Of a stretch of DNA of 64,000 nt, positions 12,001-27,000 are shown piece by piece. Source of the DNA: Phallusia mammillata (Eukaryota); contig OZ281497.1 in assembly GCA_965637545.1 (NCBI GenBank), forward strand, positions 18,228,001 to 18,292,000. Direction: 5' to 3'. A program made the position numbers. The stretch's first letter is position 1, and each line of letters starts with the position of its first letter.

Positions 12001-15000
12001 GGGATTTAATTTTTTTGTCAGCCGGTTCTATCACAAAATTCATATTTTTCAGCCGGTTCTGTTACAAAAAGTCCATTGACAGTAACCACTAATGCTAACC
12101 GGTTCGCTGATCTCATAATATTTCGTGAGACGGTTCTATGGAACCGGTGTGAACCGGCTGAATCCCATCACTGCCTGTAACCCCGTCTATATCACCAAAC
12201 ATGAAGTCCGAAAGAGGCAAACTGGCGGCGCGCAGGTTGACACGCAATATGAGACAATATTATTTTTTGTTTGCAGTGTGTGCGCGCGCGCGTAACAATA
12301 GCTGTTTGTTAATAGTTATGTAACAAACATGTTAAACAAAGAAATAAAAATCAGCGAAAACAGAACATTCAACGCTACATGTACATGGGGAGAGAAATTT
12401 GCTTTCTCTGCTGACGAGACTGTTTACCAGTGTGTCTAATATACGGTAGAGCTACTAACACTGAGCTTCACCTTTGGCCCGACCTGAGAACTTCTGGTAG
12501 GTGGCGCAACAGAGCATAGGCGTTTATGGTGCTGTTACAGCAATTTGGGTTTATGGTAAGAATAATTGCTGAGTCAGCACCATAAACGCCTATGCTCTTT
12601 TGCGCCACCTACCAGAAGTTCTCAGGTCGGGCCAAAGGTGAAGCTCAGTGTTAGTAGCTCTACCCTAATATACAATGAGACATTGGGGAGCAACAAAAAG
12701 TGTCATGAGACATAAAAACGTTTTACGCAGTGGCATTTCATTTCAAATTTCAAAACGGCTTTGTGGCTCCCAGTGTTTTTACTATGTGAAATTGGTCCGA
12801 GTGGTTCTTTGGGTAGTCAAGGCTGGCAACCACATGCCTAGCCCTAGACATTATAACAATCGTTTTATACGTTTCAAGTACATTTACAACGTGTCTATTT
12901 ACGCCAGGGGTCTCCAACTCAAAATTTGTCCAGGGCCAATTATCGAACTGCTTTGAATCCGCGGGCCATCCACGGCCCAAAATGTCGATGCTTTTAAAGA
13001 CATTGATACTGCACCACTTTAATGGCACTATAGGTCAGCTCTTTCCAAACTATAGTGTTTGGTTATTTAGTGGTTGAGGGCGCTATTTTCGTTGGCCTCC
13101 AAATGGCCATGTCTTTACAATCTTACTGGCGTGTTGATCAAGGTTTCGTTATATCACACGTAACAATCAAAGAAATCGTTTGCGCATAATTTCATATCTT
13201 AGTTTTGTCTGTGTATCACAAACCTCTCTTAGATCAGTAATATGCGTAACCAAGCAAATAATATTTAGGTGAAATGAATCCTAAAAGCTTTACTGGTAAA
13301 AAGTGAAAATTACTTTTAGCAGCTTAAGATTTCGTTTTGCTCAAGTGTTTAATTGGCTTTAGCATTGAATTTATCTTGAATTGCGATTCCAATTCTACGA
13401 CCGCGAGCCAAAAAAATCTAAAGGAAAATTACAAAACGTTTGTTGCTTGTTGGTTTGGAAACCACTGTCCTAGGCATCTGAACCAACCTATGCGGCCTAC
13501 TCAGTGTCAATAAGTTGGCTAGCCTTCATAAACGTAACGTTTATCATCCATAGGCTAAACCTATACAGTAAACTCAAAGAACTAAACCAGGGGTGCATAG
13601 CCTTTTTGCTATAACGGTTGCATCGCAGATTTTAATTTCACCAACGACCACCAATTGCCTGCTTGCTTGTGTCTTAAAATTACCAATGTAAAGAAATGAG
13701 TATACATAGATGTATATACCACCTAGAATCCTAGAATAAATACTATCCAGAAACCTAGAACAAATACTAACTTGATCCACAGATTGAGCTAAACCAGCGG
13801 TTCTTAAACTGGGGTCCGTGGTCCTTTAGGGGTCCGTGAAGCAATTTTGCAGGCCCGCGACAAGGTTGACGGACTTCTATAATCTTATTTGGCGTCCGCT
13901 TAGGCCACTTTCGCATTGTTTGCACACAATAGGCGTACAAAAAGTCTAATGTATATGGCTACTAGGCTGGTAGTACTCTTTTCAGTTCAACAAAATGTGT
14001 TTGGATCAGTTTGAAAATCAAAATATTTGGCAAAAGAGTATTTATGTACGTCACGGTCGCCAGTACATATATTTTGATATACATGTTCACGGCCGCACAA
14101 ACTCGTCTATAGAGTCGCAGGTTGTTCACCCCTGAACTAAACGGATTCTAAAGTTGACGCTTTAATGATCAGACTAAGTTTGCATTATTTCATTATAATA
14201 CTGTATCACAAAGGTTGATTTTTTTAGTGATAAATTATATCGGTGTGACTCACTGCCATACACTGAAGGTAAACGCTTTAAGCAAAGTTACATTTAATTG
14301 CGCACGGGCAGTTACCAGCAATAAAGGGTAGAATAAGTCGAAGAAAAAAGAAAACAAAAAGGCAAACAACAATTAAGGTGAATTCAACAGGTCAGCAACG
14401 AAGAAAGGAACAACAATAATTGCGATGTGTCTCCAGCACACGATAAATATGCACATTGTTATTTAAAAACCTGTCCACGCTTTATGGGTGGAAAGAACTC
14501 ATCAAACCGGCTGGTTTGATGTACTAAAGTGCGCTTTCGCCTTATAAGACTCAAATGAATCGTTACACATACGTGTAGTGGTCTTTGCGCAAGGGGACTT
14601 TTTTCGACAAAGAAATTTTATCATCGGCAATGCGGTTGACATCCATGTCATCTTTCACTCGATTTGCCTGGGCGGCCTGAAGGAACTTGGTTTTATTGCG
14701 TGGAGCCCGAAAGGAACTGCGCAGTTTCTGCAAGGGCGAGCGGGTAGTAGTCACATGTGAGGCTGCTGCTGCGGCGAGAAACCGCTCCATGACTTCGGAG
14801 TCTGCGTTGCCATGGCGAATCGGGTCGCCACTGGGCAAAGCTGGACTGCTACCGTGTTTAGTGTCTTTGCCTCCTTTTTGTGATGCAGCAGTTTTGGCAT
14901 CGTTCTTATTGCCCTTTTTAGTCCATTTACTTTCCTTGGGTGGTTTTGAATCGGTTTTGACCTTTTTACTGCTGGCGCTGGATTCCTTGGGCTTTGGCTC

Positions 15001-24000: not shown

Positions 24001-27000
24001 CCGCTCTTCAGTCATGCCAAAATTCTCATAAAAACGTGCAAGATTTCGCCAATAAATAGTGAAAAAAGCTTGTTGCCTGACACGCATGACGTCTGCCGGG
24101 GCAGATCAATGCCTGAAGCAGACAGCGATATGTGGCAAAGGGGCCTCGCAACCGAACATGGGTCTAGGTAATGTGAACGCACCGGAAACACACGCGAGGC
24201 TCCCACAACACGATACCGTGCCCCCCGAAAACCAACAAGTATCTCGCAGGAAACAGGTCGGGTGGGTTCTTCAGCAAGACGCTCAACCCGGTCATGGGTG
24301 ACCGAACTCGTGACGAGCGGTCGGGAGCTCTAAGGACTTTGTTGTTCAGTGCCACAGAAGCGGCGAAAATGTCATATTTAACACTTAACGCAGGCGCGGG
24401 GATTGAACGTTTTTTTGAAAACGTAGGTCGTTTGGGCAAAAAGCGCATTCTGGTATTAATACCGCCCCTCGTGTGGGCAGGGAATGGGGGCAAAGTGGGA
24501 GGGCTAAGGTGATTTACAAAGACCGGCACTTGTGGACAGGAAACAACGCATTCCGAAGCTGTGAAAAGTCGCGATGGGTCGTCATCATGGGCTTCGCGAG
24601 ACTCGAGATCGCATGTCTGACCGATGGGAATGGCAACATCTTGACACACGTTACGTGACAACAGTATCGCGTGGGTTTGCTACAAAGCGTAACGCCGCCT
24701 ATGATTTTGTTTGGTGTCGATTTGGTGAAACCCGCGACAAGAAAAATTGCCTGAATCACCCCCTCGTAAATATACGTTTCCCGCATGTTCCGAAAATATG
24801 TCATTTCTTAACACCATGTTTAAGCGTAGAGTTTGTAATTACCGATATATTGGGGTTGGCTATGGACCACTTGCTTCAAACATGTCAATTTAAGACAGTT
24901 TTTCAGAGGACAGACAACTGGTAAATTGTTTGTTTTGCGACAAATCGCCAAGTTCAACGGGAGAGCTGCCCCATAAAGGGCTTTGTTTAGTAAGACGAGG
25001 TCGACGTGCTCGAGCTAACGTCATGCATATTTTGCATCAGTTCGAGCAGAAACAAATAAGCCGGTAAGGTCACCTCTCACGTCAGCTTTGAACTTGAAGT
25101 CATCAGTGCCAGACATTGTGATAGAGTTTCACGTTGACTACAAGCTCTGCATATTTCTTACATTTTAGGTTTTGACTCACAAGCCAAAAGTTTTTAAAAA
25201 GTCACCAAGGCATAAATTACGGGCAAGTTGGGCCTAATTAAAATGGGGCTTATTGACACCACTTCAACTATACCACTAAGTGAAATGTTTCAACTAAGAC
25301 TGAGTCGGCGTCACCGGCGGTCTATGTAGTAATAGCCCAGACAACATTAGGCTTTCACTATTATTGTTCCTCGTGGGTATCATCTTTCTATTTACCGTGG
25401 CCAATTAGATGGGAAAGTGTTTACAGGCCTTATTTCTGTTTGGTGTCGAGCCTAATGGATGGGCACTGATGTCGGCACACAATTTTAGCAACACGGTCGA
25501 GCCATTGGACAAACAAATTTGGCTCCGTATTCTCCGGATTTTGGCAACATTGTGGCCAGGTGGTATTGAAATACGAAGGTAACTTCTAGCTGATAAACGA
25601 TATAATAACATAGGATTGCTCACCATTTCCTCACGAAGTATTTGAATTTGTCCATTAATCGCTGCCACGACAGATGCCTTTGTTGCAGTTTTCTTTTTGG
25701 AATGCTGTTTTCGTTTTGCTGGATCAACTATATCTGTTCCGGACTGCGGGCCCTCTGAAAGTTGCGTATATTCGTGTTCTTTCTTAACATGTTGGTGCAG
25801 GGGTGGTGCTGGTGGCATCTCGTGCACTGGTGCAAAGGGCTTCAACGGGTAAAAGCCACTCGAGTTCATTTCGTTCGGCGTTTCTGCTTGGGTGTGCGAA
25901 ACGCTGAAGGACTCGGACGATTTTGTGTCGAGTGCCCGTGCTTCAACTTCTTTGCAATGTTCAATGGCATATTCAAGTTCACTCAGATTGGTAACTGACG
26001 ATCTTGGGTGCTCAGACTTGCTTCGTTCGTCGCTTTGGCACATGTATGGATATGGATCCGCGTCCTTGGCAATGTTTACATCACAAGGGGATAGATGCGA
26101 TTGCGGCATACCAACCCGTGTATTGCAGTAGTTTTGTGATGTTTGAGCCGCACTGAACGTGGTACATAGCGGGTAATTTTCATACGTGTCCATGCCGTTG
26201 TAACAATCGGTTTTCGTGACGTTGTTATATGCTGGTGGCGAATCGCGCCATCCCGACTGCACATCAAGAGCGAGATAGAAATTACCGCTGCCATTGTTGA
26301 CGTTCTCGCGTAATTGATTTGCGACTGGATGGTACAATTCGACGTCTTCTTTGAACTGGGCAGGTCTGCCAAGTGGCGCCGACAGATTTGCCGCAAACGT
26401 CCCCACATTGACGTAATTGTGGCTGACGTCACGTCTGCTCTTGTTACTCGAGAACATCGGGGCTTGATGGTGTTCGTTCGAGTAGGTGACGGAATCACAA
26501 CCAGCTGCGCTATTGTTCAAGCTATAGCTGTTGCAATATCGATAACCATCCTTTACGTAAAAGTTGCCGTTGTCCAAATGCTGCTGCCCGTGACTGTTTG
26601 CCGCCAGGGCGAACTCTCTGTATTTGGCTGCAGGCATTCTTGCAGCGAAGCGAAGCAGTAAATATTATTGCACTGACGGGTTAGCTCAACGCTTGAAAAC
26701 AACTGAACAGTTGACGGATTAAAACGAGGCCCGTTTTAAAAAAAATAGCTTACGTACCTAAAACCAAACGCCACTGTGTACATCTCATACATATTTTATC
26801 AATGAATTAAATGTGCTTATTGCCTGTTCGTGCTTTACATAATTAATGCCCTCGTCTGCTTGCAGCACGGAAGAAAATTGCCTTGGAAACCATTAATTGC
26901 TGCCTTTAAACACGCCCTGTTTGACACGCTATGCAATTGAAACGGCCACTCAAATCGCTGAACGTAATTTTAAGTGCGCAACCCAACAATTCCAGCACCG

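What the first reader, a model, noticed from the sequence alone, without database searches (positions are those of the whole stretch)
14563..26637. Orphan 1645-aa multi-motif scaffold: candidate undescribed link between signalling and the actin/PDZ cortex
Seen: no globular domain that I recognise, but an ordered array of short linear motifs: Tyr-rich N-terminus, one heptad helix, DSGYQGS (beta-TrCP-type degron), RRxS basophilic sites (RRRSM, RRISL, RRTSL), LPLPPPPPPPP, WH2-like VKLRKV, a DAD-like helix and a class-I PDZ ligand (YTYV-COOH). The gene has a 6-kb first intron with no recognisable TE and shares a 10.7-kb divergent intergenic region with BarX, which is typical of developmentally regulated genes. 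Function is inference.
Basis: partly seen in the sequence, partly recalled or inferred. Interest (0 to 1): 0.7.

Follow-up and report, generated by a model that had tools for sequence, protein, structure and literature searches.

The report
Ascidian-only disordered protein, PDZ tail
This is a real six-exon sea-squirt gene, already in databases as an uncharacterised protein, that encodes an almost wholly disordered protein whose few conserved short motifs suggest a phosphorylation-controlled adaptor, not a proven actin link.

Summary
On the minus strand, 26637..14563, six exons with five GT-AG introns give 1645 codons. They match the public protein 'uncharacterized protein LOC100187023 [Phallusia mammillata]' at 1640 of 1643 compared residues. 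The window is therefore ascidian, not human.

No exon matches a Pfam family. AlphaFold2 models are disordered apart from short helices.

A full phmmer scan of 1.84 billion representatives found 16 relatives. The named ones are Ciona and Clavelina, both 'uncharacterized'. Two motif-island profiles found nothing outside this family.

Conservation sits in islands:
- C-terminal -TYV: 13 of 13.
- SIDSGY, RRxSM and SAFxPV: 15 of 15 each.
- KRRxSLP and RP[VI]PKxR: 13 of 15 each.
- A five-heptad helix across exons 1/2.

Not supported:
- The 'WH2-like' VKLRK is in 3 of 15.
- The strict DSGxxS degron is in 0 of 15; DSGxxxS is in 10 of 15.

Best reading: a dimeric, phospho-regulated disordered adaptor held by a PDZ ligand. 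Function is inferred.

The parts
25624..26637 (-). Exon 1 (338 codons, ATG at 26637). Tyr-enriched, weakly conserved N-terminal region. Its last 15 codons begin the heptad helix.
   Evidence: Collinear with Clavelina P0003 residues 1-321, E 1e-19. 19 Tyr of 338. No Pfam match.
19610..25623 (-). Intron 1, 6014 bp, phase 0, GT..AG.
   Evidence: Six intronic ORFs have no Pfam match. No Rfam match.
19386..19609 (-). Exon 2 (224 nt). Its first 20 codons complete the heptad helix.
25624..25668 (-). Heptad helix, exon-1 part. It continues at 19550-19609 in exon 2.
   Evidence: 9 of 10 a/d positions are hydrophobic over five heptads in each of P0001, P0003, P0026 and P0013. Coordinates.
19550..19609 (-). 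Heptad helix, exon-2 part.
16340..19079 (-). Exon 3 (2740 nt, 913 whole codons). A disordered region that carries most of the conserved islands.
   Evidence: AlphaFold2 mean pLDDT 39.4, with 839 of 926 residues below 50. 86 of 926 residues lie in conserved islands.
18569..18619 (-). Island LHVSECSIDSGYQGSSI: a Ser cluster (S-x-x-S-x-x-S) ending in DSGYQGS.
   Evidence: S161 and S164-Y169 are invariant in 14 of 14. DSGY 15 of 15, DSGxxxS 10 of 15, DSGxxS 0 of 15. Coordinates.
18104..18124 (-). RPVPKPR, a proline-arginine motif. It fits PxxxPR here and PxPxxR across the family.
   Evidence: RP[VI]PKxR in 13 of 15. Motif class from PMC3805583, passages.
17525..17578 (-). Island SVVRRRSMRMMTEFQIYD: a basophilic Ser site at the start of a predicted amphipathic helix.
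   Evidence: RRxSM in 15 of 15. Helix 500-517 in the model. Coordinates.
17681..17698 (-). It is poorly conserved.
   Evidence: 3 of 15. It lies N-terminal to helix 471-494.
17147..17191 (-). Proline run LPLPPPPPPPPHSPP.
   Evidence: A run of 4 or more Pro in 9 of 15; 8 or more in 2 of 15.
16913..16957 (-). Island holding SAFTPV.
   Evidence: SAFxPV in 15 of 15. Coordinates.
16811..16831 (-). KRRISLP: a basophilic site with Pro at +2 (the RxxSxP form).
   Evidence: [KR]RxSLP in 13 of 15. L759, P760 and S765 are invariant.
16379..16459 (-). LENQP...GYL island. It holds the most confident predicted helix of exon 3.
   Evidence: pLDDT 76-83 for residues about 881-900, helix 891-900. LENQP-type motif in 8 of 15. 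Coordinates read.
15829..15938 (-). Exon 4 (110 nt), Ser/Gln-rich.
15386..15485 (-). Exon 5 (100 nt). It holds YETV at 15410-15421.
   Evidence: A Y-E-[TF]-V motif is seen in the 4 full-length sequences read.
14563..15312 (-). Exon 6 (249 codons plus stop). A Lys/Ser-rich stretch, then the conserved C-terminal module.
   Evidence: AlphaFold2 mean pLDDT 52.2, pTM 0.17.
14686..14796 (-). Helix EVMERFLAAAAAS followed by the basic stretch SPLQKLRSSFRAPRNKTK.
   Evidence: Invariant columns E173, V174, E176-A181, P193-Q195 and L197-S200 in 11 of 11. Helix 170-187.
14566..14577 (-). C-terminal YTYV, a class I PDZ-ligand form.
   Evidence: T-Y-V is invariant in 11 of 11. Clavelina and Ciona both end in FTYV, giving 13 of 13.
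37367..39057 (+). Neighbour, not part of the gene: the first two coding exons of a Barx-type homeobox gene, transcribed divergently.

Best explanation
The region is a genuine, transcribed six-exon gene of the ascidian Phallusia mammillata. It encodes a 1645-residue protein that is disordered almost throughout, and it belongs to a small family detected only in tunicates.

Shown:
- the gene model and its public counterpart;
- the lack of any known domain;
- the disorder;
- a set of short islands kept among relatives that otherwise share about 20-45% identity.

Inferred mechanism. The protein pairs through its five-heptad helix. Its invariant C-terminal [F/Y]-T-Y-V holds it to a PDZ-domain protein, presumably at the cell cortex or a junction. 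It then serves as a phosphorylation-controlled docking strip:
- Two invariant basophilic Ser sites act as switches: RRRSM at the start of an amphipathic helix, and KRRxSLP, which has the RxxSxP form that 14-3-3 proteins favour (recalled).
- PVPKxR and the Pro run offer SH3-type ligands.
- The Ser ladder ending in DSGYQGS may set turnover through a PDCD4-type, one-residue-longer beta-TrCP degron.
For: Gene:
- 5 of 5 GT-AG introns and 1645 codons.
- 1640 of 1643 residues identical to P0001, with 3 substitutions. P0001 therefore comes from another haplotype or source than this assembly.
- P0001 is named after its best Ciona hit. That is the naming rule of the RNA-based embryonic transcriptome of PMC7237864 (passages read). 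The link is my inference.

Disorder:
- No Pfam match.
- Exon 3 model pLDDT 39.4; exon 6 model 52.2.

Family:
- 16 hits at E<=1e-3 among 1.84e9 representatives.
- The named ones are Ciona and Clavelina.

Conserved islands:
-.
- Heptads.

Motif classes:
- The DpSGXXpS consensus, and PDCD4's DpSGRGDpS bound at Ki 6 nM: PMC13097077, passages.
- CIN85 SH3 ligands PxxxPR and PxpxxRh: PMC3805583, passages.
- The 14-3-3 and class I PDZ consensus forms are recalled, not taken from a call.
Against: - No binding partner, location or phosphorylation is shown by any search.
- In the single sequence most motifs occur as often as in shuffles, so the case rests on conservation alone.
- Conservation shows constraint, not which partner binds.
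- The second Ser of the DSG motif is missing in 5 of 15.
- Strict PxxxPR is seen only in the window and P0002 among the sequences read.
- The Pro run is absent in 6 of 15.
- The Lys-rich stretch of exon 6, with invariant K107, K116, K117, K119 and K123, could equally be a nuclear signal.
- Three of the word-index searches were limited. Searches scored only the roughly 8000 candidates that shared the most words.
Confidence: 0.45

Rival explanations
1. It is a very diverged orthologue of a characterised bilaterian or vertebrate disordered adaptor. The candidates I had in mind from recall are the Dact/Dapper family (leucine zipper, Ser-rich region, C-terminal PDZ ligand for Dishevelled) and the NHS/GUK-holder family (similar size, one very large internal exon, long first intron). 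Its function would then follow that family.
For: - The architecture resembles both families: an N-terminal-proximal heptad helix, a Ser-rich disordered body, an invariant PDZ-type tail, and one 2.7-kb exon after a 6-kb first intron.
- Tunicate proteins are known to diverge fast (established knowledge).
- The family features themselves are recalled, not taken from a call.
Against: - hmmscan of all 14 members of A1 at E<=5 lists 11 families, none shared by more than 2 members and none of them Dapper or NHS. The six exons likewise give none.
- phmmer of exon 3 over 1.84e9 representatives gave 16 hits, all within the family.
- The island profiles A2 and A3 at E<=10 gave 16 and 13 hits, all within the family.
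- The tail is -TYV and three exons follow the big exon. As I recall it, Dact genes end in their large exon.
Confidence: 0.2
2. One reading: the protein couples signalling directly to actin through a WH2-like motif (VKLRKV) and a formin-DAD-like helix.
For: - A Pro run lies in the same protein (9 of 15 with 4 or more Pro).
- The C-terminal helix plus basic stretch is strongly conserved.
Against: - VKLRK is in 3 of 15, and a looser pattern in 6 of 15.
- An LKKV-like tetrapeptide arises in 906 of 2000 shuffles.
- The motif precedes the predicted helix 471-494 instead of following one.
- No WH2, DAD or FH2 family appears among the Pfam results.
Confidence: 0.07
3. It is a disordered nuclear or RNA-granule regulator, and the C-terminal tail is conserved for a reason other than PDZ binding.
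For: - The Lys-rich block in exon 6 has invariant lysines.
- The composition is Ser/Lys/Arg-rich.
- There is no membrane or cortical feature in the sequence.
Against: An invariant free C-terminal T-Y-V in 13 of 13 is what a C-terminus-reading domain would select. Such a tail arises in only 490 of 20000 shuffles of exon 6.
Confidence: 0.15
4. The 1645-aa model is an artefact that fuses two genes, with exon 1 belonging to another transcript.
For: Intron 1 is long (6014 bp). Exon 1 is the least conserved part: 26% identity to Clavelina, and only one short island matches Ciona at E 0.002.
Against: - The Clavelina, Ciona and P0013 proteins all carry an N-terminal region running into the same heptad helix, which here spans the exon 1/2 junction in phase 0.
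- P0001 joins the exons and differs from the window at 3 residues, so it was not predicted from this assembly.
Confidence: 0.03

Closest known systems
'Uncharacterized protein LOC100187023' of Phallusia mammillata (CAB3263039.1 / A0A6F9DIS1), with Ciona intestinalis XP_002120723.3 and XP_078485246.1, and Clavelina lepadiformis XP_076812001.1
   Same: The Phallusia entry is the same protein: 1640 of 1643 compared residues are identical. The Ciona and Clavelina entries share the helix, the islands and the FTYV end.
   Different: The window differs from the Phallusia entry at 3 residues. Ciona lacks the LENQP...GYL island and a run of 4 or more Pro. None of these entries carries a functional name.
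Dact/Dapper family (recalled, not retrieved by any tool)
   Same: It works alike on paper: a coiled-coil helix near the N-terminus, a Ser-rich disordered body and a C-terminal class I PDZ ligand.
   Different: There is no Pfam Dapper match in 14 members or 6 exons. The tail is different (-TYV), the protein is about twice as long, and three exons follow the large one.
NHS / NHSL / GUK-holder family (recalled, not retrieved by any tool)
   Same: Similar length, a long first intron, one very large internal exon, a mostly disordered body and Pro-rich SH3-type ligands.
   Different: There is no Pfam NHS match. The helix lies about 320 residues in, not at the very N-terminus.
PDCD4-type 'semicanonical' beta-TrCP degron (PMC13097077, passages)
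   Same: DSGYQGS has the same D-S-G-x-x-x-S spacing as DpSGRGDpS.
   Different: It is a motif-level likeness only. The second Ser is absent in 5 of 15 relatives, and no phosphorylation or turnover data exist.

Membership tests
Ascidian LOC100187023 family (uncharacterised) | Significant full-length similarity of the large exon to the other members | tested here: met
   phmmer gave P0002 at 8e-162, Clavelina P0003 at 4e-96 and Ciona P0006 at 4e-45. Names.
Ascidian LOC100187023 family (uncharacterised) | Shared islands (SIDSGY, RRxSM, SAFxPV) and a -TYV end | tested here: met
   15 of 15 for each island. -TYV in 13 of 13.
WH2 actin-binding motif | Amphipathic helix followed by a conserved LKKV-type motif; Pfam WH2 match | tested here: not met
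   VKLRK is in 3 of 15. The motif precedes the helix. No WH2 match among the Pfam results.
Formin DAD | Match to a DAD profile and presence of formin domains | tested here: not met
   No DAD, FH2 or FH3 family in the Pfam results for exon 6 or for full-length P0003. The DAD consensus itself was recalled and was not compared.
Canonical beta-TrCP phosphodegron | D-S-G-x-x-S spacing (consensus from PMC13097077) | tested here: not met
   0 of 15 have DSGxxS. 10 of 15 have DSGxxxS, the PDCD4-type spacing.
Class I PDZ ligand | Free C-terminus of the form [S/T]-x-hydrophobic (consensus recalled) | tested here: met
   T-Y-V followed by a stop in 13 of 13. Actual binding to a PDZ domain is not testable with these tools.
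Dact/Dapper | Match to the Pfam Dapper profile | tested here: not met
   Not among the families returned for 14 members at E<=5 or for the 6 exons. HMMER filters drop most matches above E of about 0.1, so a very remote link is not excluded.
NHS / GUK-holder | Match to the Pfam NHS profile; N-terminal WAVE-homology helix | tested here: not met
   No such family. The helix lies at residues about 324-358.
14-3-3 mode-I site | R-x-x-S-x-P that is phosphorylated | tested here: inconclusive
   The sequence form R[RH]x[ST]LP is in 12 of 15. Phosphorylation is not testable here, and the consensus is recalled.

The most novel reading that the evidence does not exclude
A tunicate-restricted, wholly disordered adaptor family arose, or diverged beyond recognition, on the ascidian stem. 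It has kept a fixed 'bar-code' of about a dozen short motifs, including an invariant -TYV PDZ tail, through the split of phlebobranch and aplousobranch ascidians. It would be a lineage-specific hub joining PDZ scaffolds, basophilic-kinase/14-3-3 switching, SH3 adaptors and regulated turnover in embryos with invariant cleavage.
Probability: 0.3. Interest if true: 0.45.

Novelty: new member of a known kind. Interest (0 to 1): 0.3.

Why it matters
If the reading holds, ascidians carry a lineage-restricted disordered adaptor. Its function would be written in about 86 conserved residues out of more than 900 in the main exon. That makes it a clean natural example of how short linear motifs, rather than domains, are kept under selection.

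It would also be a candidate cortical or junctional organiser in embryos famous for invariant cell lineages.

As it stands, this is an already deposited uncharacterised gene with a motif-based guess at function. It is useful for annotation but not surprising to a specialist.

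Tried and rejected
- **Whole-exon profile search.** Profile A1 in the word-index search returned 4 proteins and missed known members. Only the 7998 candidates sharing the most words were scored, so I treat it as uninformative.
- **ESM Atlas.** Exon 3 gave a best score of 0.87 to unnamed arthropod 'hypothetical protein' clusters, and 0.85 to a cluster where 24% of members carry DUF4592. Both are below the 0.9 lead level. Exon 6 gave no usable hit.
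- **PDB sequence searches.** Profiles A1 and A2 and exon 1 each gave 0 hits at E<=10. A4 gave two chance-level rows: ribosomal L36 at E 0.097 and an alcohol dehydrogenase at E 2.
- **Fold search.** Not run. Both models are too low in confidence for a fold search to mean anything.
- **Literature.** 'LOC100187023' and 'XP_002120723' each found 0 papers. 'FTYV'+'PDZ' found 1 unrelated paper (listing only). 'YTYV'+'PDZ' found 0. The claim that no function is in print rests on these four searches of the held library only.
- **Collections not used.** The genome-contig scan covers only bacteria and archaea. Synteny with Barx in other ascidians therefore stayed unchecked.
- **Direct comparison with Dact or NHS.** Not possible, because no tool returned those sequences.

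Full report
**What is there.** The window has no N. Between 26637 and 14563 on the minus strand lie six open segments joined by five GT..AG introns with matching phases:

| Exon | Coordinates |
|---|---|
| E1 | 26637-25624 |
| E2 | 19609-19386 |
| E3 | 19079-16340 |
| E4 | 15938-15829 |
| E5 | 15485-15386 |
| E6 | 15312-14563 |

Together they make 4938 nt, or 1645 codons plus a stop. Intron 1 is 6014 bp.

**How the exons were handled.**

**It is already in the databases.**
- A phmmer scan of exon 3 against 1.84 billion representative proteins returned a 1645-aa protein, P0001.
- An exact look-up names it 'uncharacterized protein LOC100187023 [Phallusia mammillata]', CAB3263039.1 / A0A6F9DIS1.
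- Compared exon by exon, 1640 of 1643 residues are identical and 3 differ. The two split codons were not compared.
- The window is therefore from the ascidian Phallusia mammillata (Tunicata, Phlebobranchia) or something very close to it. It is not human.
- The three substitutions show that P0001 was not predicted from this assembly.
- P0001 is named after its best Ciona hit. [quoted passage not shown]
- That P0001 comes from that data set is my inference. If so, all five junctions have transcript support and the gene is expressed between egg and larva.

**Exon 1 belongs to the gene.**
- Exon 1 aligns end to end with residues 1-321 of the 1604-aa Clavelina lepadiformis protein P0003 (E 1e-19, 26% identity).
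- With Ciona only one short island (LExAIxHCKxxEA) is significant, at E 0.002.
- In P0001, P0003, Ciona P0026 and the unnamed P0013, a five-heptad helix with 9 of 10 a/d positions hydrophobic follows the N-terminal region.
- In the window this helix is split by intron 1 in phase 0, at 25668-25624 and 19609-19550.

**No domain, mostly disorder.**
- None of the six exons has a Pfam match. The best rows are chance-level at E of 0.1 or more.
- hmmscan of all 14 members of alignment A1 at E<=5 lists 11 families, none shared by more than 2 members.
- The AlphaFold2 model of exon 3, using the 14-sequence alignment, has mean pLDDT 39.4 and 839 of 926 residues below 50. Only four helices appear: 471-494, 500-517, 768-774 and 891-900.
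- The exon 6 model has mean pLDDT 52.2 and pTM 0.17, with helices 40-48, 170-187, 193-201 and 207-215.
- The composition is Ser-rich throughout. Exon 1 has 19 Tyr in 338 residues.

**Family and range.**
- The full scan found 16 proteins at E<=1e-3, of which 10 are at E<=1e-10.
- Ten of them were looked up. The named ones are Phallusia, Clavelina (Aplousobranchia) and Ciona intestinalis, all 'uncharacterized'. The rest are unnamed records, which I cite by handle only.
- A profile of the DSGY island (A2, 14 sequences), searched among longer proteins at E<=10, gave 16 hits. All are family members, including the 1227-aa Ciona XP_002120723.3. Only the 7996 candidates sharing the most words were scored.
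- A profile of the last 90 residues (A3, 3 sequences) gave 13 hits among all 887 candidates, again all within the family.
- Ten of those 13 are short C-terminal-exon ORFs.
- The first profile search (A1) was swamped and is uninformative.
- PDB sequence searches and the ESM Atlas gave no lead.
- With these tools the family is seen only in tunicates. That is weak evidence of true restriction, because the word-index searches are limited and no profile-profile search was possible.

**Which motifs are conserved.** In A1, mean column conservation over the window's residues is 0.36. Only 86 of 926 residues lie in strongly conserved islands. Counts over 15 big-exon sequences:

| Motif | Count of 15 |
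|---|---|
| DSGY | 15 |
| SIDSGY[QH] | 15 |
| RRxSM | 15 |
| SAFxPV | 15 |
| [KR]RxSLP | 13 |
| RP[VI]PKxR | 13 |
| RVKLGxSA-type | 10 |
| ERPNSD-type | 10 |
| Pro run of 4 or more | 9 |
| LENQP-type | 8 |
| DSGxxxS | 10 |
| DSGxxS | 0 |
| VKLRK | 3 |
| Pro run of 8 or more | 2 |

At the C-terminus (A4, 11 sequences) the following are invariant:
- T-Y-V at the end;
- the EVMERFLAA helix core;
- PLQ.LRSS;
- a DD pair.

Clavelina and Ciona both end in FTYV, so -TYV is in 13 of 13.

**Chance.** In the window's own sequence, shuffles reach the observed motif counts often:
- LKKV-like: 906 of 2000
- R..S.P: 757 of 2000
- P.[PA]..R: 578 of 2000
- DSG: 196 of 2000
- RR.S: 118 of 2000
- class I PDZ end: 490 of 20000
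- Pro run: 1 of 2000

Presence alone proves little. Conservation is the evidence.

**How it most likely works (inferred).**
- A short coiled coil pairs two chains.
- The invariant free -[F/Y]TYV end is of the class I PDZ-ligand form (consensus recalled) and would tether the protein to a PDZ scaffold.
- RRRSM opens a predicted amphipathic helix. KRRxSLP has the RxxSxP form favoured by 14-3-3 proteins (recalled). Both look like basophilic-kinase switches.
- PVPKPR fits the CIN85-type PxxxPR ligand. The family form PxPxxR resembles the PxpxxRh variant (PMC3805583, passages).
- The invariant S-x-x-S-x-x-S ladder runs into DSGYQGS. Its spacing is not the DpSGXXpS consensus. It matches the one-residue-longer PDCD4 form, which still binds beta-TrCP tightly (PMC13097077, passages).
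- None of these interactions is shown by any search.

**What does not hold.**
- The WH2 reading fails on conservation, on order relative to the helix and on Pfam.
- The 'DAD-like' label has no test behind it, although that helix is truly conserved.
- An actin link therefore has no positive evidence.

**Surroundings.**
- The neighbour on the plus strand is a Barx-type homeobox gene. The ORF at 37367-38641 ends in the start of a homeodomain and carries an FLIRDIL motif.
- Its exon at 38881-39057 hits PDB 2dmt_A 'Homeobox protein BarH-like 1' at E 5e-24, against about 6e-15 for BarH-like 2 chains, and Pfam Homeodomain at 8e-18.
- The divergent gap is 10,729 bp.
- Six intron-1 ORFs and four intergenic ORFs have no Pfam match. 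Rfam finds nothing in the window. One small tandem repeat lies inside exon 3.
- 'No recognisable TE' is consistent with this, but no repeat library was available.

**Verdict.**
- The gene is a real but already deposited, functionally uncharacterised member of a small ascidian family of disordered, motif-bearing proteins.
- The literature claim rests on four searches. Supplements were closed.
- Interest is modest.

Noticed in passing
window 37367-39057 (+): A Barx-type homeobox gene. The first ORF (424 aa) carries an FLIRDIL, eh1-like motif near its N-terminus and ends in the first residues of the homeodomain. The rest of the homeodomain is in an exon at 38881-39057. The best PDB match is 'Homeobox protein BarH-like 1' (2dmt_A) at E 5e-24.
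   Followed up: partly
window 45812-46687 (+): A 291-aa ORF with a Pfam DUF4062 match (E 4.6e-06, 27.2 bits against a cut-off of 24.7). It also has a chance-level PDB row to 'Telomerase protein component 1' (E 0.25). It may be an exon of a larger gene.
   Followed up: partly
window 57541-59064 (-): A long 507-aa ORF with ordinary, non-repetitive composition. It has no Pfam match at E<=0.01 and no PDB sequence match at E<=1. It is probably a large exon of another uncharacterised gene.
   Followed up: partly
family proteins P0009-P0012 and P0015 (unnamed records): A divergent subgroup keeps SIDSGY, RRxSM, SAFxPV, KRRxSLP and (P0036) a CTYV end. It lacks the RVKLG, ERPNSD, Pro-run and LENQP...GYL islands. 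This separates a core motif set from a lineage-specific one.
   Followed up: partly
window 15410-15421 (-), exon 5: A Tyr motif, Y-E-T-V, preceded by His. It recurs as HHYETV in Clavelina, HVYETV in Ciona and KKYEFV in P0013. Only 4 sequences cover it.
   Followed up: no
window 17327-17365: A small imperfect tandem repeat (period 16, 2.4 copies, score 50) inside exon 3. It is probably of no consequence.
   Followed up: no
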